DNA of 64,000 nt from a virus. The position numbers and the translations under genes were made by a program. Positions within the stretch are counted from its first letter, which is position 1, and each line of letters starts with the position of its first letter. Location of the stretch: IMG/VR virus record IMGVR_UViG_3300046170_000301; one strand, given 5' to 3'. The notes below the pieces were generated by a model. It made no database searches. It was not told the origin of the DNA and saw nothing but the letters and a program-made list of their open reading frames with translations. This document shows positions 22,339 through 50,169 of this stretch, one piece after another.

Positions 22339-22420
22339 TGCGAGAGAAGGGACTTGAACCCTTACGCCTTTCGGCATTGCTTTCTAAGAGCAACGTGGCT
22401 ACCAATTACACCACTCTCGC
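22339..22420 (-). tRNA. trnL: tRNA-Leu (anticodon UAG)
   Basis: GCGAGAG/CTCTCGC acceptor stem, TTGCT-CT TAG AA-AGCAA anticodon arm, long variable arm, GTTCAAGT T-loop. Confidence 0.92.
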
Positions 22421-22942
22421 TTATATCATTCGTTTAAACTCAAACCTACCGTATTTAGACCCCCATATCTGATGATGATGCTTTGCACACATACCTTTGT
22501 CAATAACAAAATAAAAATCTTTTGTTAATTCAACTTGAGTTTGAAGATAAGTTTCTCGCCCCCTCCAATTCACAAAACATTCACATCCTTGAGTGCCACC
22601 AACAAAAGAATCATTCACCTGCTTGAATACTGTATCACACCCATCTTTTATTGTCAAGTCTTTTCTGGTAAGCATTTCAAGATTTTTGCCATTACGATAG
22701 TTTTGTTTGTCTTTAATTTCGTAGTTTATAATTACGATTTCATCACCATTAAGTGTTGGTTCAAGAACAAACTGTCTATAAGGAAGACCTAACTGATAAT
22801 TATATGCTTGCTCACCATAAAATAATCCGTCACCAATATCGATATGTGTTATTCTAATATATGCATAACGACTTGGATGAGAAAATGCCTGTCGTTTATT
22901 TTCAAAAGAACCAACTAGATATTCTTTAAAAGTATCAATCAT
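22421..22942 (-). CDS. cpeT: CpeT/CpcT-family phycobiliprotein lyase
   Basis: GSFENKRQA, FYGEQAY...PYRQ, GCD, IDKG...QIWGSKYGRFEF. Confidence 0.9.
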   Translation of the reverse strand: MIDTFKEYLVGSFENKRQAFSHPSRYAYIRITHIDIGDGLFYGEQAYNYQLGLPYRQFVLEPTLNGDEIVIINYEIKDKQNYRNGKNLEMLTRKDLTIKDGCDTVFKQVNDSFVGGTQGCECFVNWRGRETYLQTQVELTKDFYFVIDKGMCAKHHHQIWGSKYGRFEFKRMI

Positions 22943-23207
22943 CTTTAGGTAATAAATCTGGATTTTCTAAATCAAGAGAAAACATTAATGGGTGCATCTC
23001 CTCACACACTAGATAATTAGTATACATATATATATCTTCATCATTATAATCTCTACCTTGTAAAGCTTCTGCTTGTATGGCAGGATGGTCTTGAACTATT
23101 TTTGGCAACTCATCAAATGTATATGGGATTCCTTGAATAAAATACATTCTCACTACTTCCCCATTATAAAAACAATATGATTGAGTGAGTTTGTATTTTC
23201 CCGACAT
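22935..23207 (-). CDS. conserved cyanophage hypothetical protein
   Basis: VRMYFIQGIPYTFDEL...EEMHPL; overlaps both neighbours. Confidence 0.75.
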   Translation of the reverse strand: MSGKYKLTQSYCFYNGEVVRMYFIQGIPYTFDELPKIVQDHPAIQAEALQGRDYNDEDIYMYTNYLVCEEMHPLMFSLDLENPDLLPKDD

Positions 23208-23860
23208 TATGTTTTTGCGTAAGAGAATAAAAAATTTTCTACATAATCTTTCGCAAAAGTTTTTCCAAATCTTTGCTGCATAAACCCAATAACTGGGTCT
23301 AGTTCATAAATATATGTATCAAAGTTTACAAAATTATCTACTTCATCATCTATTGGTTTGTAAGTATTCAATAACTCAGAATAAGTTTTTACATACTTTT
23401 CAAAATCAAGTAAATAATCATCAACTTGAGACATCTCACATTTTTTAACAAAAATATATCTAGAGAAATGATTTCCTGGTTGAAAAAATCTAATTTTTTT
23501 TGTTATTCCATTGTATTCAGATAAGTTTTTTCTGATGATTGGATCATCATAATCATAGTTATCTGCAGGATGTTGAAAATCAAAAACAATGATGACTTTC
23601 TTCTCAAAGAACGCCATCAAATCAATACCTAAACAAGGTAGGTTTTTTCCAGTTTTTGGATAAATTATATTGTTGTAGATATATTCCGTTTCTCCAGATT
23701 CAACATATGTTTCTCTAGATTTTAATACATACTCACCAGTATAAAGTTTAGATTCTAAACGATTGTTCTTCTCTTGGTGGTCTGTTGAATAAACCAATTT
23801 CAAGTCAAGATTTTCGTGCAGACATTTTCTATAGTTATTCCATAGCATTGGTTTATACAT
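23207..23860 (-). CDS. pebS: phycoerythrobilin synthase (ferredoxin-dependent bilin reductase)
   Basis: IYPKTGKNLPCLGIDLM..KKVIIVFDFQHP, RFF..GNHFS, FDTY..ELDPV and FLFSY closely match the P-SSM2 PebS sequence as I recall it. Confidence 0.88.
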   Translation of the reverse strand: MYKPMLWNNYRKCLHENLDLKLVYSTDHQEKNNRLESKLYTGEYVLKSRETYVESGETEYIYNNIIYPKTGKNLPCLGIDLMAFFEKKVIIVFDFQHPADNYDYDDPIIRKNLSEYNGITKKIRFFQPGNHFSRYIFVKKCEMSQVDDYLLDFEKYVKTYSELLNTYKPIDDEVDNFVNFDTYIYELDPVIGFMQQRFGKTFAKDYVENFLFSYAKT

Positions 23861-23883
23861 TCAACAATATTATTTATTGTTAA

Positions 23884-23957
23884 TACCCGAGGTGGGATTC
23901 GAACCCACGACTGCTCGATTTTAAGTCGAGAACCTCATTCCGCTGGGTCACTCGGGC
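23884..23957 (-). tRNA. trnL: tRNA-Leu (anticodon UAA), short variable loop
   Basis: GCCCGAG/CTCGGGT-A acceptor, CTCGA-CT TAA AA-TCGAG anticodon arm, GTGGG-TTCGAAT-CCCAC T arm. Confidence 0.88.
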
Positions 23958-23965
23958 TTGTTAGG

Positions 23966-24038
23966 TGCAAGTTGAGGGAATTGAACCCACCTTAGGCGCT
24001 TTATGGGAACGCTGTATTTGACAGATTGCTAGACGAGC
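23966..24038 (-). pseudogene. degenerate tRNA with CAU anticodon (Met/Ile2)
   Basis: GCGTT-CC CAT AA-AGCGC arm and GGTTCAATTCC T-loop, but three acceptor-stem mismatches and C at position 33. Confidence 0.65.
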
Positions 24039-24097
24039 AAATTATCATATTCCCAATGACAATTAGGACATAAAGGCATTAAATTTGTTTCTGCATT
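24029..24097 (-). pseudogene. HNH endonuclease C-terminal remnant
   Basis: NAETNLMPLCPNCHWEYDNLLV*, with an in-frame stop immediately upstream. Confidence 0.7.
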
Positions 24098-24116
24098 AAG
24101 TTAGTTCAAAACACAA

Positions 24117-24207
24117 TAGGGACACTCGGATTCGAACCGAGACCTCGCACTAATCTGGTGCTAATACGGATTATAAGACCGCTGTTCTGCCGTTGAACTA
24201 TGCCCCC
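24117..24207 (-). tRNA. trnI: tRNA-Ile (anticodon UAU) with a 24-nt extra arm
   Basis: GGGGGCA/TGTCCCT-A acceptor, GTTC/GAAC D stem, CT TAT AA loop, CTCGG-TTCGAAT-CCGAG T arm. Confidence 0.8.
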
Positions 24208-44695: not shown

Positions 44696-44951
44696 ACCCA
44701 TTGATTTTCTACCCCCCCAAGTGCTTCTGCACAGATAGGAAATTGCTTGACAAAGATTTTTTTACATTCTTTAGCAATATCCATATGCTCTTTTTGCGTT
44801 CCATGTTTTTCTCGGAGTGCAATACCCATTGATTTTCTACTCCCCCAAGTGCTTCTGCACAGATAGGAAATTGCTTGGCAAAGATTTTTTTACATTCTTT
44901 AGCAATATCCATATGCTCTTTTTGCGTTCCATTTTTTTCTCGGAGTGCAAT
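44696..44951. repeat. 128-bp tandem duplication of the thyX 3' end (3 mismatches)
   Basis: 44696-44823 repeats 44824-44951; the period is not a multiple of 3. Confidence 0.9.
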
Positions 44952-45476
44952 ATATGTGATCCATGATCTACAACTACCTGCCATATAAAGACGGGTAGGA
45001 GTTGCCAGAGGAAGAACAAAACGGGCACACTCTTTAGCAATACCCTTCTCTATCATTTGCTTGTAGATATCCATGCCACTTTGGAAGTGTCGTTGGATAG
45101 TAATCTCAAGCTCTTGCTTCAAGAAAGGATCAACATCATCGATAGAGTTCTGCCTGTTCTTTGTATCCTGACTGCGAAGATCAAACATAGGGATCTCATC
45201 CGCCAGCATAGAACTATCAGCATACCGCTGAGAAAACTCTTGAAATGTGAACGAACGGTGGCGCAGGATTTGAGCTGAGATACCACGATTCGTTTCAATC
45301 TCAAGCGTCATGAACGCTTGCTCAAACACAGACCAGTGGTTGTGCTTGATACAATACTTCAGGAGACCAGCGACGTTAGGATTCTCCTGATTGTTGGGGT
45401 TCGAGACTCTCGCTACGTAACCCATCATCTTCTCTGCTTCTGGTGTCACTGACACCAACTTCACTAACTGACTCAT
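44709..45476 (-). CDS. thyX: flavin-dependent thymidylate synthase
   Basis: HWSVFE, QILRHRSFTFQEFSQRY and KECARFVLP; start ATG 45476; C-terminus extended by the duplication. Confidence 0.93.
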   Translation of the reverse strand: MSQLVKLVSVTPEAEKMMGYVARVSNPNNQENPNVAGLLKYCIKHNHWSVFEQAFMTLEIETNRGISAQILRHRSFTFQEFSQRYADSSMLADEIPMFDLRSQDTKNRQNSIDDVDPFLKQELEITIQRHFQSGMDIYKQMIEKGIAKECARFVLPLATPTRLYMAGSCRSWITYIALREKNGTQKEHMDIAKECKKIFAKQFPICAEALGGVENQWVLHSEKNMERKKSIWILLKNVKKSLSSNFLSVQKHLGG

Positions 45477-45642
45477 AGTTGTATCCAAATCCTCTTTGTG
45501 TTTTTTCGTAGTTAATAAGGTCTCGACGAAGTTTTTGAATGGTAGCATATCTTTGTTTCAGGATTTTATATTCTTCATCATTATAAAGATGTCCTTTATC
45601 TAAAGCAGCTTTTATTTGCTTCGTTAATGTTTTGTAGCTCAT
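45376..45642 (-). CDS. hypothetical protein; 3' part overlaps the thyX start
   Basis: first gene after a perfect sigma70 promoter; HLYNDEEY...RGFG. Confidence 0.6.
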   Translation of the reverse strand: MSYKTLTKQIKAALDKGHLYNDEEYKILKQRYATIQKLRRDLINYEKTQRGFGYNYESVSEVGVSDTRSREDDGLRSESLEPQQSGES

Positions 45643-45666: not shown

Positions 45667-45703
45667 ATTATAGCAAAAAAAAGAGGGGTTGTCAAGACCC
45701 CTC
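45667..45703 (-). promoter_or_regulatory. consensus sigma70 promoter embedded in an intrinsic terminator
   Basis: GAGGGG-TC TTGACA A-CCCCTC-T8-GC-TATAAT; exact TTGACA-N17-TATAAT. Confidence 0.88.
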
Positions 45704-45847
45704 GGATTCTAAGAGTTGTTCAAACCAATCTCGTAAATGAACAAGATAACACGACCAATACGTACACCCTCTATAGATTAGTTGATAACATGCTGGTGGT
45801 CTGTTATCTTTATCCATGTCATCATGATGATAGACATAGTTATCCAT
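45692..45847 (-). CDS. microprotein (51 aa) with an LxYRGxxY motif
   Basis: MDNYVYHHDDMDKDNRPPACYQLIYRGCTYWSCYLVHLRDWFEQLLESEGS*. Confidence 0.6.
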   Translation of the reverse strand: MDNYVYHHDDMDKDNRPPACYQLIYRGCTYWSCYLVHLRDWFEQLLESEGS

Positions 45848-45850
45848 TTA

Positions 45851-45961
45851 TCATTTTGCTGTTTTACATTGACAGATTTGACAAAGAGCAGCTTGATGCT
45901 TCCTATCCTCTTTTTGTTTTTGTTGTTTAATCATTTGAAGAACATTGAGTTTAGTTGTCAT
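45851..45961 (-). CDS. basic microprotein (36 aa)
   Basis: MTTKLNVLQMIKQQKQKEDRKHQAALCQICQCKTAK*; TGATG coupling to the upstream ORF; GGAGG RBS. Confidence 0.6.
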   Translation of the reverse strand: MTTKLNVLQMIKQQKQKEDRKHQAALCQICQCKTAK

Positions 45962-46098
45962 CATTTGTGACCCTCCTTCACGAAACGAATGCCACGATAA
46001 GCTTCGTTGTATTGCTGAGGTTGCTGCTGTGCTTGTGACTGTTTTTGGCGACGAGCTTCGATGTCATATGCAACACCACGATATACTACTTTAGCCAT
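45961..46098 (-). CDS. DUF4278-family microprotein (45 aa)
   Basis: MAKVVYRGVAYD...YRGIRF (two YRG motifs); GGAGG RBS. Confidence 0.8.
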   Translation of the reverse strand: MAKVVYRGVAYDIEARRQKQSQAQQQPQQYNEAYRGIRFVKEGHK

Positions 46099-46134
46099 TA
46101 GGATTTCCTCCAAAGAAATGAGATTGTTAAGTCC

Positions 46135-46227
46135 CGTTCCTTCGGGCGGTTTGCGTTCGCTATTTGAAAATAGCGAATGAACGTCCCGTTCCGCCGTCCT
46201 ACTTGCGTCCGATTTCTCGGATGAACG
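46135..46227 (-). ncRNA. tandem glutamine riboswitch (glnA / Downstream-peptide class)
   Basis: two units of CGTTCA-[hairpin]-CGCAA...GGAACG (hairpins TCCGA-GAAA-TCGGA and TTCGCTATT-TTCA-AATAGCGAA) between a promoter and a DUF4278 gene. Confidence 0.8.
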
Positions 46228-46234
46228 TGGATAC

Positions 46235-46263
46235 ATTATAGCGTATCTATACTATGTAGTCAA
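46235..46263 (-). promoter_or_regulatory. sigma70 promoter of the riboswitch operon
   Basis: TTGACT-N17-TATAAT; predicted start about 46228, at the first aptamer. Confidence 0.85.
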
Positions 46264-46270
46264 GGGGCTT

Positions 46271-46286
46271 TGTAAAATGTGATACA
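46271..46286. promoter_or_regulatory. NtcA-like binding site
   Basis: TGTA-AAATGTGA-TACA equals the consensus GTA-N8-TAC, just upstream of the -35 box. Confidence 0.6.
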
Positions 46287-46291
46287 ATATT

Positions 46292-46453
46292 TTATATGAG
46301 CCAGAAAGTATCGTTCTTCCCCTTACAAGACTTTCTTATTTTAATACCGTATCCATTTTCCATCAGGTGTCTGGCATTAAGAACCTTTACGTCATCAATC
46401 TTGGTAACTTTCCAATACTGAATACAAAATGTATTTTGTTTGCTACTTTACAT
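46292..46453 (-). pseudogene. probable degraded small gene (ATG followed directly by TAA)
   Basis: M*SSKQNTFCIQYWKV...ARHLMENGYGIKIRKSCKGKNDTFWLI*. Confidence 0.4.
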
Positions 46454-46748
46454 TTTTCTTTTTAGATTCTTTTGGTTTTACTCCCCACAGTTTTGGATTT
46501 CTCCTGCCATCAGTCCATTCCATACTTTGAATAACATTACCAAGCCTATCATAATAAGCATCAAAGATATCACAACTTAATCCCATCACAATATCATACC
46601 ATTCTTCATCATCTTTTTTTGATTTAACAAGATATGTATTTGATGGGAGAGATTTGTCTTTTGCTGCTTCAATATCACAGTTTGAAGCTATTACTTTGAT
46701 AGAATAATTCTCAACAAATTTTACATCCTCTCCCGACATAACCATCAA
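46443..46748 (-). CDS. conserved cyanophage hypothetical protein
   Basis: DKSLPSNTYLV...YDIV...IFDAYYD...GRRNPKLWG. Confidence 0.75.
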   Translation of the reverse strand: MMVMSGEDVKFVENYSIKVIASNCDIEAAKDKSLPSNTYLVKSKKDDEEWYDIVMGLSCDIFDAYYDRLGNVIQSMEWTDGRRNPKLWGVKPKESKKKNVK

Positions 46749-47942: not shown

Positions 47943-49971
47943 TCAACCAATCACTGGTGCTTTGAGAGCCACAGGAGTGGATTCAACGGAGGCAAGATCC
48001 AAGGGAAAGTTGTGTGCGTTCCTTTCGTGCATCACCTCAAATCCAAGGTTTGCTCGGTTGAGGATGTCAGCCCAAGTGTTGATAACACGACCCTCAGACT
48101 CCACAATAGACTGGTTGAAATTGAAACCATTAAGGTTAAAGGCCATAGTAGACACGCCAAGAGCAGCGAACCAGATACCAATAACAGGCCAAGCAGCCAG
48201 AAAAAAGTGAAGGCTACGGGAGTTATTAAACGAGGCATATTGGAAAATCAGACGACCAAAGTAACCATGAGCAGCTACGATGTTGTATGTTTCTTCTTCT
48301 TGTCCAAACTTGTATCCGTAGTTTTGGGAGTCTTGTTCTGTGGTTTCACGAACGAGAGAAGAAGTAACCAGACTTCCGTGCATAGCACTAAAGAGGCTGC
48401 CACCGAATACCCCAGCCACACCGAGCATATGGAAGGGATGCATAAGGATGTTGTGTTCTGCTTGGAAGACGAGCATGAAGTTGAACGTTCCCGAAATTCC
48501 AAGAGGCATTCCATCACTGAAGGAACCTTGACCGAAAGGATAGACAAGGAACACTGCAGAAGCAGCGGCAACAGGAGCAGAATAAGCAGTACAAATCCAA
48601 GGACGCATACCCAGACGATAGGAGAGTTCCCACTCTCGACCCATATAAGAGAAGACACCGATAAGGAAGTGGAAGACCACTAGTTGATAAGGACCACCAT
48701 TATATAGCCACTCATCGAGGCTGGCAGATTCCCAGATTGGATAGAACACATAACCCATAAGTTTCCTTATGGTGCTGACTATATCATCACCCTAAATTGA
48801 GGGTGTCGGGCGCTAATGTCGTATTACAGGTCACGCTTGACCAACCGACTAGTCGATGAACCTTACACAGAAGTATCGTCTGTGTCTTGGCTGCTGATTG
48901 CCATACCAGTAAAAGGGTTAGGTTTCCAGCAATTCACCCGATTTTCTTATACCATTACTGATATAAGGCACTCCTTTACGAATGCAATCCAATCGCATTA
49001 GAACTTGGAACAACAGCACCAGAAATGATGTTGTTTCCATACATGAGTGAACCAGAAACAGGTTCACGAATCCCGTCGCCTACATCTAACAAACAACCAT
49101 ATCTTTTGACTTAGGTTGTTTCTGTTGACGGATTTGATTTGCTCGTTTTGCATTTTCTACTCTTCCACCATTTTCTACCCACTCTTTCCAAGTTTGTAGA
49201 TGAGAAATACATTCGGTTATTCTTTCTGCTCGTCGTACTCCCATATAAGGAAGTATTTTTTGTAGAATGAATAATACCTTTTCTTTTTCTCCAATGTGAA
49301 GTGTATAAACTTGTTTACCTTTTACAGTTTTTCTTGATGGTGAGAAATAAGACTTATCTAAAAGTTTACTCAACCTTTGGATAATATCTTCATCTACCAT
49401 AGAAACTTTAATAAAAGGTGCTGGTGGTATTTTAGAAACTTCATAACGGTCTTTGGAACGATTATCTATTCCAAAGTATCCTTCACCTTCTAATAAACCA
49501 GCAATCCAAGCAACATCAGTTTCAGTTAGGTTTAACATTTTACTCTTGCATCTTCTGTATTATTTATACAGCATTAGCAAGAAAAAGTCAACAGTAGATG
49601 TGTGGACTATATCTTCACCCTTCATAGAAGGGGCTGGGCACTCTAGCCTGTTATTAAGAGGACTGAACCTCTCAGGTAGTCTCTGAACCTTCCTTAGGTG
49701 TACCTAAGGCTTGGCTGCTGATTGCCTTTCGGTTTCCAGCAATTCACCCAGTTTCGTCAATACTCTTACGAGTAAGGGACACCGATTAGTTAATGTCTAC
49801 GGGTGGTGCTCCAATAAAAGCAACGATGAAGCAGACAGTTGCGGCGAGCAACGTTGGAATCATTAGGGTTCCAAACCATCCGACATAAAGACGATTGTTT
49901 GTTGAAGTAACCCACTCACAGAATGATTCCCAGACGTTAATTCGTTGAGGTCTAAGAACTGTAGTTGTCAT
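47943..49971 (-). CDS. psbA: photosystem II D1 protein; three exons (49793-49971, 48982-49078, 47943-48746), 359 aa spliced
   Basis: [15 protein letters not shown]|DGIREPV, NAIGLH|FYPIWE and [14 protein letters not shown]; exons sum to 1080 nt in frame. Confidence 0.97.
48747..48981 (-). mobile_element. group I intron 2 in psbA (ORF-less, 235 nt, after CDS nt 276)
   Basis: exon ends in U and intron ends in G; P1 GCAU|UC pairs with GAGUGC with U.G at the junction; P AATTGCTGGAAA, Q AATCAGCAG, R TCATCGACTA, S GATATAGTC. Confidence 0.92.
49086..49538 (-). CDS. single-motif LAGLIDADG homing endonuclease (intron-encoded)
   Basis: [13 protein letters not shown] motif; lies after the S element. 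Confidence 0.85.
49561..49568 (-). promoter_or_regulatory. T4-type late promoter inside intron 1
   Basis: exact TATAAATA 22 nt upstream of the endonuclease ATG. Confidence 0.75.
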
Positions 49972-50075: not shown

Positions 50076-50169
50076 TGGGTATCAATGCTTACTAATCTGT
50101 TGAGGCCCTGACATTAGAGTCCCTTATCAAACCAGATAAATAGAAAATAAGTGCCCACCATCGTCTATA

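What the first reader, a model, noticed from the sequence alone, without database searches (positions are those of the whole stretch)
45692..46286. Phage nitrogen-sensing module: NtcA box, promoter, tandem glutamine riboswitch and three microproteins
Seen in order on the minus strand: TGTA-N8-TACA centred about -50, TTGACT-N17-TATAAT, two CGTTCA...GGAACG aptamers starting at the predicted TSS, a 45-aa DUF4278 protein, a translationally coupled 36-aa basic peptide, a 51-aa peptide with another LxYRGxxY motif, then a terminator. Known: cyanobacterial gifB (glutamine synthetase inactivating factor IF17, DUF4278-containing) is controlled by both NtcA and a glutamine riboswitch. Inference: the phage reads host 2OG and glutamine and makes microproteins that act on glutamine synthetase or compete with host inactivating factors. 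Riboswitch-DUF4278 pairs are known in marine cyanobacteria and their phages; the NtcA box and the two extra peptides, which are absent from the ORF track, are the less described part.
Basis: partly seen in the sequence, partly recalled or inferred. Interest (0 to 1): 0.8.

Follow-up and report, generated by a model that had tools for sequence, protein, structure and literature searches.

The report
Cyanophage glutamine-gated three-microprotein cassette
A T4-like cyanophage carries a compact early operon in which a nitrogen-regulator (NtcA-type) DNA box, a strong promoter and a double glutamine-sensing RNA precede three tiny, linked, conserved protein genes; the parts are known from the host, but their arrangement in the phage differs and what the proteins act on is unknown.

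Summary

- **NtcA-type box.** It lies about 50 nt upstream of the start site. An exact box sits at the same spacing in 36 of 63 distinct phage riboswitch promoters. Host picocyanobacteria instead place it over the start site (24 of 27 loci).
- **Riboswitch.** The "tandem" riboswitch is not two independent aptamers. The E-loop halves and the two strands of P3 are split between the units and covary. This fits one canonical glnA-type aptamer with a second, circularly permuted core nested in its P3.
- **The three ORFs.** All show clear coding signatures and are translationally coupled.
  - ORF1 belongs to the DUF4278 family, although the window's copy scores below Pfam's threshold.
  - ORF2 is a basic helix that occurs fused to YRG proteins in relatives.
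  - ORF3 is a family with no match in Pfam, PHROGs or NCBIfam and is often unannotated. In the contexts examined it follows a riboswitch-controlled YRG gene.
- **Function.** Action on glutamine synthetase is unsupported. DUF4278 is the part of IF17 that is dispensable for GS inhibition.

This scan has already met the same cassette in at least 54 other genomes, and earlier follow-ups also found the nested aptamers. Verdict: real, a new variant of a known kind, of moderate to high interest.

The parts
46271..46286 (-). NtcA-type palindrome TGTA-N8-TACA (core GTA-N8-TAC at 46285..46272), centre about -50.5, ending 8 nt upstream of the -35 hexamer
   Evidence: An exact box lies 7-9 nt upstream of -35 in 36 of 63 distinct phage riboswitch promoters. 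It is found at 33 of 58 riboswitch promoters but only 12 of 1704 control promoter-like sites in the same loci.
46235..46263 (-). Sigma-70-type early promoter TTGACT-N17-TATAAT. The -10 hexamer lies inside the inverted repeat GATAC...GTATC.
   Evidence: 11 of 12 consensus positions. Inverted-repeat arms around the -10 hexamer average 6.0 nt at 27 riboswitch promoters and 3.1 nt at 211 other strong promoters.
46187..46227 (-). Aptamer unit 1: CGUUCA, P1a hairpin UCCGA-GAAA-UCGGA, CGCAAGUA (5' half of the E-loop), GGACGG (5' strand of P3), then GGAACG
46135..46183 (-). Aptamer unit 2: CGUUCA, a 9-bp P1a hairpin, CGCAAA, CCGCCC (3' strand of P3), GAA (3' half of the E-loop), then GGAACG, which closes the outer P1 with unit 1's CGUUC
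46099..46134 (-). Expression platform: a UUUCUUUGG / UCCUA tract and the SD GGAGG lying 8 nt before the ATG. In the predicted ligand-free fold it pairs with CCGAAGGAA and UAGGA of the aptamer.
   Evidence: MFE -43.2 kcal/mol, z = -3.1.
45961..46098 (-). ORF1, 45 aa: a DUF4278-family microprotein with two YRG motifs (phrog_5049)
45851..45964 (-). ORF2, 37 aa (36 aa from the second ATG): a basic helical peptide whose start overlaps ORF1's stop (ATGA)
   Evidence: The S-PM2p191 homologue is annotated.
45692..45847 (-). ORF3, 51 aa: invariant C20, Y25-R26-G27, Y30-W31-S32-C33-Y34 and H37 in the first alignment of 14 sequences. Predicted beta-hairpin followed by a helix. ATG lies 3 nt after ORF2's stop, with no SD of its own.
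45675..45703 (-). Intrinsic terminator (7-bp G+C-rich stem plus T8). It overlaps ORF3's last codons and carries the -35 hexamer of the next early promoter in its loop.

Best explanation
This is a self-contained early-gene cassette of a T4-like cyanomyovirus that ties the synthesis of three microproteins to the host's nitrogen status.

1. Transcription. Host RNA polymerase transcribes from a near-consensus sigma-70 promoter. A conserved NtcA-type site lies just upstream of its -35 hexamer, centred near -50.5.
2. The sensor. The transcript starts directly with a double glutamine sensor. The outer part is a canonical glnA-type aptamer: P1 is unit 1's CGUUC paired with unit 2's GAACG, with a P1a hairpin and an AGUA/GAA E-loop. 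Its P3 helix is formed between the two units. Nested inside P3 is a second, circularly permuted core that lacks an E-loop (GGAACG, a 3-nt loop, CGUUCA, a hairpin, CGCAAA).
3. The switch. Without glutamine, the 3' strand of the sensor (CCGAAGGAA) and UAGGA are predicted to pair with the region around the Shine-Dalgarno sequence. Glutamine binding would fix the outer P1, E-loop and P3 and free the ribosome-binding site. This would be an ON switch, like the gifB and Prochlorococcus leaders.
4. Coupling. ORF1, ORF2 and ORF3 are translationally coupled (an ATGA overlap, then a 3-nt gap with no SD), so one switch would gate all three.
5. Products. ORF1 is a DUF4278-family peptide built on YRG hairpins. 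ORF2 is a basic helix that probably partners with ORF1, since the two are fused in relatives. ORF3 has a YRG-turn beta-hairpin plus a helix.

Shown: the anatomy, the conservation, the covariation and the coding signal. Inferred: glutamine binding, NtcA binding and its sign, the ON-switch logic, and any target of the peptides. The most likely target is a component of host nitrogen assimilation or signalling, not identified.
For: - Identity and context: the window is most similar to Kyanoviridae phages, and S-PM2 has the same layout between speD and td.
- Riboswitch hit: RF01739 scores 38.9 bits, above the gathering score, as a single hit spanning both units.
- Split elements: unit 1 always has GUA but no GAA, and unit 2 always has GAA but no GUA. 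The segments between covary (AGUCG/CGACU; GGACGG/CCGCCC; AGCCGACx/yGCCGACU with x-y = U-A, G-C or A-U).
- Statistics for P3: only 2 of 10,000 permutations reach the matched duplex energy. Pair 31-93 is AU 18, GC 6, GU 2, and pair 39-86 is GC 7, UA 6, AU 4. Overall 95% of cells are paired and 0 of 500 shuffles reach this.
- Energies: nested fold -28.0, independent tandem fold -20.6, and the MFE -43.2 kcal/mol, which pairs the SD. The SD is at least 3/4 paired in 19 of 28 related leaders.
- Box conservation and specificity.
- Coding signal: variable sites by codon position are 21/14/40 (ORF1), 13/9/28 (ORF2) and 22/17/45 (ORF3). The synonymous fraction is 0.52-0.57 in frame and 0.04-0.14 out of frame.
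- ORF1 family: 26 of 26 homologues hit DUF4278.
- ORF2: it aligns to the N-terminal helix of the MNTLNLIKKQ..YRG..YRG proteins at 81% probability. Fusions occur in L107 and L121.
- ORF3: in the seven contexts examined closely it follows a riboswitch and a YRG gene, and the same holds in the tandem-leader loci that carry it.
- Switch direction: the ON-switch behaviour of the gifB and MED4 leaders is taken from PMC6212724.
Against: - No experiment exists on any phage copy. Ligand binding, NtcA binding and translation are all inferred.
- Each unit alone is below Rfam's cut-off (23.1 and 27.7 bits).
- P1 is invariant, so covariation cannot tell which CGUUC pairs with which GAACG. The nested topology rests on P3, the split E-loop, steric reasoning and nearest-neighbour energies.
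- The window's P3 contains an A.C mismatch, and class-b P3 helices contain two.
- The sequences are phylogenetically related, so shuffle tests overstate significance.
- A box at about -50.5 matches neither the known activating position (-41.5) nor the repressing positions (overlapping the core promoter or start site) for NtcA. A consensus promoter also needs no activator.
- The anti-SD pairing differs between leader classes.
- The peptides have no match to anything of known function.
Confidence: 0.7

Rival explanations
1. One reading: the microproteins are phage glutamine-synthetase inactivating factors, or competitors of host factors, made when glutamine is high.
For: - The ORF1 family belongs to DUF4278, a domain present in IF17 (PMC6212724).
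- The regulatory inputs are the same as for gifB (an NtcA motif plus a glutamine riboswitch).
- ORF1 and ORF2 are basic, as the inactivating factors are.
Against: - DUF4278 is the N-terminal part of IF17. It is dispensable for GS inhibition and mainly stabilises the protein.
- The GS-binding part is the IF7-like C-terminus with its critical arginines, and nothing here matches it (PMC6316151).
- The reviews cited say earlier work argued against IF-mediated GS control in the streamlined marine picocyanobacteria, and that the question needs testing.
- No paper found links a cyanophage to GS inactivation.
Confidence: 0.15
2. Two independent tandem aptamers (a pseudo-cooperative doublet), as glutamine doublets are classed in the tandem-riboswitch survey. 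Each would bind glutamine on its own.
For: - PMC9481103 counts 157 glutamine doublets and treats them as tandem.
- Each unit has CGUUCA, a covarying P1a hairpin, CGCAA and GGAACG.
- Each unit matches RF01739 and RF01704 weakly on its own.
Against: - Only 2-5 nt separate the units, leaving no room for a separate expression platform.
- Unit 1 lacks GAA and a 3' strand of P3. Unit 2 lacks GUA and a 5' strand of P3.
- The two P3 halves covary with each other.
- The tandem fold is 7.4 kcal/mol less stable than the nested fold.
- Infernal's best alignment is one aptamer with an insert.
Confidence: 0.12
3. The upstream palindrome is not an NtcA site that matters for control. It may be bound by another CRP-family protein or a phage factor, or it may act as a promoter-upstream element. 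Nitrogen control would then rest on the riboswitch alone.
For: - The position near -50.5 fits no characterised NtcA promoter class.
- The promoter is near consensus and should fire unaided.
- 24 of 63 related promoters lack the box (2 or more mismatches).
- S-SRM01 has the riboswitch but no box.
Against: - The motif is the extended NtcA consensus TGTA-N8-TACA, with invariant G, T, A...T, A, C.
- It keeps a fixed 8-nt spacing to the -35 hexamer across very divergent promoters.
- It is about 80-fold enriched at riboswitch promoters relative to other promoter-like sites.
- Host DUF4278 genes carry a perfect NtcA box as well.
- NtcA boxes have been proposed to drive many cyanophage genes (PMC3037559).
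Confidence: 0.2

Closest known systems
Synechocystis sp. PCC 6803 gifB (IF17) promoter and leader: NtcA-repressed promoter plus a type 1 glutamine riboswitch (PMC6212724)
   Same: - The aptamer core is the same (CGUUCA, P1a, CG(G/C)AAGUA, P3, GAAGGAACG).
- It lies in the 5' UTR of a DUF4278-containing gene.
- An NtcA motif sits at the promoter.
- Translation is switched ON by glutamine (shown there, inferred here).
   Different: - The gifB leader has a single aptamer. Here a second, permuted core is nested in P3.
- NtcA overlaps the core promoter and represses there. Here the box lies upstream of -35.
- IF17 has the IF7-like GS-binding C-terminus. ORF1 (45 aa) does not.
- gifB has no coupled ORF2 or ORF3.
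Picocyanobacterial type 2 (Glutamine-II, RF01704) riboswitch with a DUF4278 gene, for example Prochlorococcus MED4 PMM1846/yfr6 (PMC6212724, PMC6316151)
   Same: - These are the natural hosts of such phages.
- The products are short YRG-repeat proteins.
- A perfect GTA-N8-TAC box accompanies the riboswitch (24 of 27 loci sampled here).
   Different: - The host box lies between the -10 hexamer and the aptamer, over the start site (centre -12.5 or -11.5 from CGUUCA). The phage box is about 40 nt further upstream.
- Host aptamers are single, pseudoknotted and strong RF01704 matches (50-75 bits). The phage leader scores only 20 bits on RF01704 and 38.9 bits on RF01739.
- Host genes are monocistronic in the loci read.
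Tandem glutamine riboswitches as catalogued (Weinberg 2010, PMC2864571; Sherlock 2022, PMC9481103)
   Same: Two glutamine aptamer cores lie head to tail in one leader. Many of the catalogued doublets probably are this phage element.
   Different: They are described there as tandem or pseudo-cooperative. Here the units share one P3 and one E-loop and have a single expression platform. I could not read Ames and Breaker 2011, so I cannot exclude that this was noted there.
S-PM2 genes p190-p191 and their leader (AJ630128, T4-like gene clusters 872-873)
   Same: S-PM2 has the same box, the same spacing, the same promoter, the same double aptamer, a DUF4278-like first gene, an overlapping ORF2 homologue, and the same position upstream of thymidylate synthase.
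   Different: The third gene, p192, belongs to another family (MDREKLKLI...) and is not ORF3. P3 is of the AGCCGACU class.

Membership tests
Glutamine riboswitch type 1 (glnA RNA, Rfam RF01739) | Covariance-model score at or above the gathering score (35 bits) | tested here: met
   The score is 38.9 bits for 46229..46131, but only when both units are read as one aptamer with a 52-nt insert in P3. The units alone score 23.1 and 27.7 bits.
Glutamine riboswitch type 1 (glnA RNA, Rfam RF01739) | P1 (CGUUC/GAACG), a P1a hairpin and P3 supported by covariation | tested here: met
   All 5 P1a pairs of unit 1 and 4 of 9 P1a pairs of unit 2 show double changes. P3 has 3 pairs with double changes. P1 is invariant and so uninformative.
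Glutamine riboswitch type 1 (glnA RNA, Rfam RF01739) | E-loop formed by AGUA and GAA flanking P3 | tested here: met
   It is present only across the units. AGUA is in unit 1 only and GAA in unit 2 only, in all 26 leaders in the table (27 in the later alignment A3).
Glutamine riboswitch type 1 (glnA RNA, Rfam RF01739) | Selective binding of L-glutamine | not testable with these tools
   This needs in-line probing, ITC or a reporter assay.
Independent tandem (pseudo-cooperative) riboswitch doublet | Each aptamer is structurally complete and has its own expression platform | tested here: not met
   The spacer is 2-5 nt. Each unit lacks one strand of P3 and one half of the E-loop, and the halves covary between units.
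NtcA-controlled promoter | GTA-N8-TAC palindrome conserved at orthologous promoters | tested here: met
   An exact box is present in the window. It is found in 36 of 63 distinct related promoters at a spacing of 7-9 nt, and in 3 more with one mismatch. It is found at 33 of 58 riboswitch promoters against 12 of 1704 controls.
NtcA-controlled promoter | Activated class: box centred near -41.5, replacing the -35 hexamer | tested here: not met
   The centre is about -50.5 and a full TTGACT -35 hexamer is present. The alternative promoter TTTACA-16-TAGTAT would put the box near -36.
NtcA-controlled promoter | Repressed class (gifA, gifB, host DUF4278 genes): box overlapping the -35/-10 hexamers or the start site | tested here: not met
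   The window's box ends 8 nt upstream of the -35 hexamer. In hosts, 24 of 27 loci have it over the start site. Only 7 of 82 phage leaders have a second box there.
NtcA-controlled promoter | 2-oxoglutarate-dependent NtcA binding | not testable with these tools
   This needs an EMSA, a footprint or ChIP.
DUF4278 (Pfam PF14105) | The protein scores at or above Pfam's gathering score (25.3 bits) | tested here: not met
   The window's ORF1 scores 16.8 bits, E = 0.009.
DUF4278 (Pfam PF14105) | Family-level membership with two YRG..Y motifs | tested here: met
   All 26 homologues hit PF14105 at E <= 0.01, the best at 1.8e-13. Y6 R7 G8 Y11 and Y34 R35 G36 are invariant.
Glutamine synthetase inactivating factors IF7/IF17 | IF7-like C-terminal region carrying the arginines critical for GS binding | tested here: not met
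   ORF1 is 45 aa and aligns only to DUF4278. None of the three ORFs has any other Pfam or NCBIfam hit. The domain roles are taken from PMC6316151.
Glutamine synthetase inactivating factors IF7/IF17 | Inhibition of GS activity | not testable with these tools
   This needs an enzyme assay or a pull-down.
DUF4278-like motif in ORF3 | Detectable homology of ORF3 to DUF4278 | tested here: inconclusive
   - The YRG..Y motif is invariant in ORF3.
- hhalign against the ORF1 family gives only 23% probability over 15 columns.
- No Pfam hit at E <= 1.
- The ORF3 profile does find one true DUF4278 protein, P0043, at E = 9e-5.

The most novel reading that the evidence does not exclude
The phage has rewired the host's nitrogen circuit in three ways.
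- It moved the NtcA site from a repressing place (over the start site) to an upstream place beside a consensus promoter.
- It fused two glutamine-binding cores into one nested, possibly cooperative two-site sensor with a circularly permuted inner core.
- It placed three interacting YRG/helix microproteins under that sensor.

Together this would form a gate that opens only in a metabolic state typical of infection (2-oxoglutarate and glutamine both high). The peptides would then act on a hub of host nitrogen control such as GS, PII, PipX or NtcA.
Probability: 0.2. Interest if true: 0.85.

Novelty: new variant of a known kind. Interest (0 to 1): 0.62.

Why it matters
Riboswitches are considered rare in phages; a 2017 survey reported only two glutamine aptamers in cyanophage genomes (PMC5473149). 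Here the element recurs in dozens of isolates and more than a hundred metagenomic contigs, with several features of interest.
- Its architecture (a shared P3 and a permuted inner core) is not what "tandem riboswitch" implies, and it hides each unit from standard searches.
- The NtcA-type box sits at a different place from the host's.
- The cassette encodes three coupled microproteins, two of which have no match in Pfam, PHROGs or NCBIfam.

The cassette offers a small, testable system for two questions. One is how a virus reads host carbon/nitrogen status. The other is what DUF4278 proteins do, which is still open in marine picocyanobacteria, organisms that matter for ocean nitrogen and carbon cycling.

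Tried and rejected
- **ORF3 structure.** Foldseek of the ORF3 model against the PDB gave no match below E = 1.9. The ESM Atlas look-up scored 0.81, which is noise level.
- **ORF2 searches.** tblastn against phages found nothing. ORF2 is too short for the search for homologous proteins. Its homologues were found only by synteny and motif.
- **Family libraries.** NCBIfam gave no hit for any of the three ORFs, and PHROGs gave none for ORF2 or ORF3.
- **Host homologues of ORF1.** The genome-contig scan returned six loci. Four sit in non-cyanobacterial MAGs and look like mis-binned phage contigs. I therefore sampled host loci through RF01704 instead.
- **Type 1 aptamers in hosts.** I considered claiming that hosts lack type 1 aptamers. 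I dropped this because 5 of 41 genomes have RF01739 matches just above the cut-off.
- **Class II NtcA promoter.** I considered a promoter using TTTACA-16-TAGTAT. The spacing would put the box near -36, so I rejected it.
I considered GGCGG/CCGCC. I preferred the register homologous to the other classes (GG-A-CGG/CCG-C-CC), anchored on GUA and GAA, but the two cannot be told apart in the window alone.
- **A conserved anti-SD.** I looked for one across all leader classes. The partner differs between classes.
- **Literature.** Ames and Breaker 2011 is not held.
Full report
**Source and context.** The window is most similar to T4-like cyanomyoviruses (Kyanoviridae: S-PM2, S-WAM2, S-CAM1 and S-RSM4 at about 75-82% nucleotide identity). 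The finding lies on the minus strand between an upstream gene (46748..46443) and a further early promoter, a small gene and thyX (45548..44709). S-PM2 has the same layout between speD and td. There the promoter, box, double aptamer and genes p190 and p191 match the window. Only the third gene, p192, belongs to another family.

**Observation.** All listed elements are present.
- The box TGTATCACATTTTACA is at 46286..46271.
- The promoter TTGACT-N17-TATAAT is at 46263..46235 and matches 11 of 12 consensus positions.
- CGUUCA of the first aptamer unit starts 7 nt after the -10 hexamer.
- ORF1 is 45 aa, ORF2 is 37 or 36 aa, and ORF3 is 51 aa.
- A terminator hairpin lies at 45703..45683.
- GTA-N8-TAC occurs 30 times in the window against 13 expected. 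TGTA-N8-TACA occurs 7 times against 1.9 expected. A single box is therefore not remarkable on its own; its conservation is what counts.

**NtcA-type box.** A pattern scan of IMG/VR for the junction between the two units returned more than 100 loci, most of them cyanophage.
- Among 63 distinct promoter-bearing leaders, 36 have an exact GTA-N8-TAC ending 7-9 nt upstream of the -35 hexamer (29 at exactly 8 nt). Three more have one mismatch. The logo is the extended NtcA consensus.
- In the same loci, only 12 of 1704 other promoter-like sites have a box at that spacing, against 33 of 58 riboswitch promoters.
- Within the window, none of the other strong early promoters has a box at this spacing. 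The psbA promoter has one at a different spacing.
- For comparison I sampled 41 picocyanobacterial genomes with RF01704. Of 27 host riboswitch loci, 24 carry a perfect box centred 11.5-12.5 nt before CGUUCA. That is between the -10 hexamer and the aptamer, over the start site. This is the repressing position already reported for MED4 (PMC6212724).
- The phage keeps the motif but has it about 40 nt further upstream, beside a consensus promoter. This matches neither the activating position (-41.5) nor the repressing class, so the sign of any NtcA effect is open.
- NtcA boxes in cyanophage genomes were reported in 2010 and proposed to drive phage genes under infection-induced nitrogen stress (PMC3037559). 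I did not find their specific link to the riboswitch promoters in the papers I could read.

**Riboswitch architecture.** Rfam scores the region above threshold only as one aptamer with a 52-nt insert (38.9 bits). The units alone score 23.1 and 27.7 bits.
- In the 26 distinct leaders tabulated (27 in the later alignment A3), unit 1 always reads CG(C/G)AA-GUA-X-GGAACG and never has GAA. Unit 2 always reads CGCA(A/C)-(A)Y-(G/A)AA-GGAACG and never has GUA. The two halves of the E-loop are thus split between the units.
- X and Y are complementary and change together between clades: AGUCG/CGACU, GGACGG/CCGCCC (the window), and AGCCGACx/yGCCGACU with x-y = U-A, G-C or A-U, plus two further variants.
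- Matched X-Y duplexes are more stable than permuted ones; only 2 of 10,000 permutations reach the matched mean.
- On an alignment of 27 leaders the nested structure has 95% of cells paired and 12 pairs with double changes, and no shuffle of 500 reaches it. P3 pairs 31-93 and 39-86 each show three pair types.
- The P1a hairpins covary strongly. P1 is invariant and so uninformative.
- The fold that satisfies P3, the E-loop and proper three-way junctions has an outer aptamer (unit 1's CGUUC paired with unit 2's GAACG) and an inner core. The inner core is GGAACG, a 3-nt loop, CGUUCA, a hairpin and CGCAAA, closed by the far end of P3. It has the same circular order of helices as a normal aptamer but is permuted and has no E-loop.
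- By nearest-neighbour energies the nested fold is -28.0 kcal/mol and two independent aptamers are -20.6 kcal/mol.
- Published surveys list glutamine doublets as tandem or pseudo-cooperative (PMC2864571, PMC9481103). I could not read Ames and Breaker 2011.
Several earlier follow-ups of this scan on other genomes reached the same nested reading.

**Expression platform.** This part rests on predicted folds only.
- The predicted ligand-free fold of the window's leader (-43.2 kcal/mol, z = -3.1) keeps the two hairpins and the inner GAACG/CGUUC stem.
- It pairs CCGAAGGAA (3' strand of P3, half the E-loop, and the start of P1) with UUUCUUUGG at the SD. It also pairs UAGGA with UCCUA just before the AUG.
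- S-PM2 has the equivalent UGAAGGAA/UUUCUUUA complementarity.
- In 19 of 28 related leaders the SD is at least 3/4 paired in the MFE, and in 21 the outer P1 is absent.
- This fits a glutamine ON switch, as shown experimentally for the gifB and MED4 leaders (PMC6212724). The anti-SD partner differs between leader classes.

**The three ORFs.** All three have a strong coding signature among homologues. Third-position variability dominates, and the synonymous fraction is 0.52-0.57 in frame against 0.04-0.14 out of frame.
- *ORF1.* The window's copy scores below Pfam's DUF4278 threshold, but all 26 homologues scanned hit it, the best at 1.8e-13. It belongs to phrog_5049.
- *ORF2.* It overlaps ORF1's stop (ATGA). 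It is conserved in about 19 loci, including S-PM2p191 and S-RIM32. It has no match in Pfam, PHROGs or NCBIfam.
- *ORF2 and ORF1 together.* ORF2 aligns to the N-terminal helix of a related family (MNTLNLIKKQ...YRG...YRG) at 81% probability. The rest of that family aligns to ORF1's YRG motif at 85%. L107 and L121 are fusions in the order YRG then helix. AlphaFold models the helix and a YRG-turn beta-hairpin at moderate confidence. These fusions suggest that ORF1 and ORF2 act together.
- *ORF3, placement and distribution.* Its ATG lies 3 nt after ORF2's stop and it has no SD of its own. Homologues occur in 37 phage records, 22 of them with no feature annotated there. A profile search of 1.84 billion representatives found only 21 clusters.
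- *ORF3, context.* In the seven isolate contexts I examined closely, ORF3 directly follows a YRG gene or an ORF2-like gene behind a glutamine riboswitch, often with an ATGA overlap. The tandem-leader loci that carry it show the same order.
- *ORF3, structure and kinship.* C20, Y25-R26-G27, Y30-W31-S32-C33-Y34 and H37 are invariant in the first alignment of 14 sequences. The model is a beta-hairpin with RG at the turn followed by a helix (pLDDT 76). Kinship with DUF4278 is only hinted at: 23% by hhalign, and one true DUF4278 protein at 9e-5.

**Function.** Nothing ties the peptides to glutamine synthetase.
- In IF17 the DUF4278 part is dispensable for inhibition and mainly stabilises the protein. 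The GS-binding part is the IF7-like C-terminus, which is absent here (PMC6316151).
- The function of DUF4278 proteins in marine picocyanobacteria is itself unknown (PMC6212724, PMC6316151).
- I found no paper on phage copies.
- My best reading is a glutamine-gated microprotein cassette associated with an NtcA-type box, acting on some part of host nitrogen metabolism or signalling. GS is one candidate among several.

**Novelty and score.** The parts are known: the glutamine riboswitch with a DUF4278 gene, tandem glnA RNAs, and NtcA boxes in cyanophages. What I did not find described is the following.
- The fixed upstream box at riboswitch promoters, contrasted with the host position over the start site.
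- The shared-P3, permuted architecture of the double aptamer.
- The coupled ORF1-ORF2-ORF3 operon, with fusion evidence for ORF1 and ORF2.
- The ORF3 family.

This scan has met the same cassette in at least 54 other genomes. The window's copy is the plain version, with no gene inside the aptamer.

Noticed in passing
Related loci, e.g. L124:1087-1297 (S-RIM8), L125, L126, L127, L128, L003, L123 and L002:1016-1190. Not present in the window.: A gene sits inside the aptamer. In 64 of 68 distinct leaders where unit 2's CGTTCA is followed by ATG, a 49-66-aa ORF fills the P1a loop. It ends inside the aptamer core (GAC GCA AAC GAC TGA reads D-A-N-D-stop). The start-codon side pairs with the stop-codon side with compensatory changes (UCCCAUGG/CCAUGGGA, UCCUAUGC/GCAUAGGA, UCUAUGG/CCAUAGA). 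Earlier follow-ups of this scan reported the same.
   Followed up: partly
window 46228..46252 (minus strand) and related promoters: The -10 hexamer of riboswitch promoters lies inside an inverted repeat of variable sequence (the window has GATAC-GCTATAAT-GTATC). Arms average 6.0 nt at 27 riboswitch promoters and 3.1 nt at 211 other strong promoters. Seven phage leaders have a true GTA-N8-TAC there, as hosts do. The purpose is unexplained.
   Followed up: partly
Host loci L135-L169: Besides the perfect box over the start site, many host DUF4278 promoters carry an imperfect GTATC-N5-GAAC (GT-N10-AC) about 50 nt further upstream, near -43. This may be a second NtcA-type site.
   Followed up: no
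window 50079..50092 and 50075 (minus strand): A GTA-N8-TAC box ends 3 nt upstream of the -35 hexamer of a TTGACA-N17-TATTAT promoter that precedes the intron-split psbA.
   Followed up: no
window 45667..45703 (minus strand): The loop of the terminator hairpin contains the -35 hexamer TTGACA of the next early promoter (12 of 12 consensus match), and the stem overlaps ORF3's last codons. The packing is very compact.
   Followed up: no
L089:375-460, L112, L118, L037: Close relatives have an extra 27-28-aa hydrophobic ORF (MIAMIAAIAGASTAFIYLIY...) between ORF2 and ORF3. The window lacks it.
   Followed up: no
L129, L130, L131, L133: Cyanophage-like contigs carrying this cassette are binned in Bacteroidota, Poseidoniales, Acetobacteraceae and Rhodospirillaceae MAGs. 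This is probably mis-binning.
   Followed up: no
window 48755..48991 and 49586..49802: Two group I introns lie in psbA, and there are three tRNA genes at 22339..24207. These belong to other findings.
   Followed up: no
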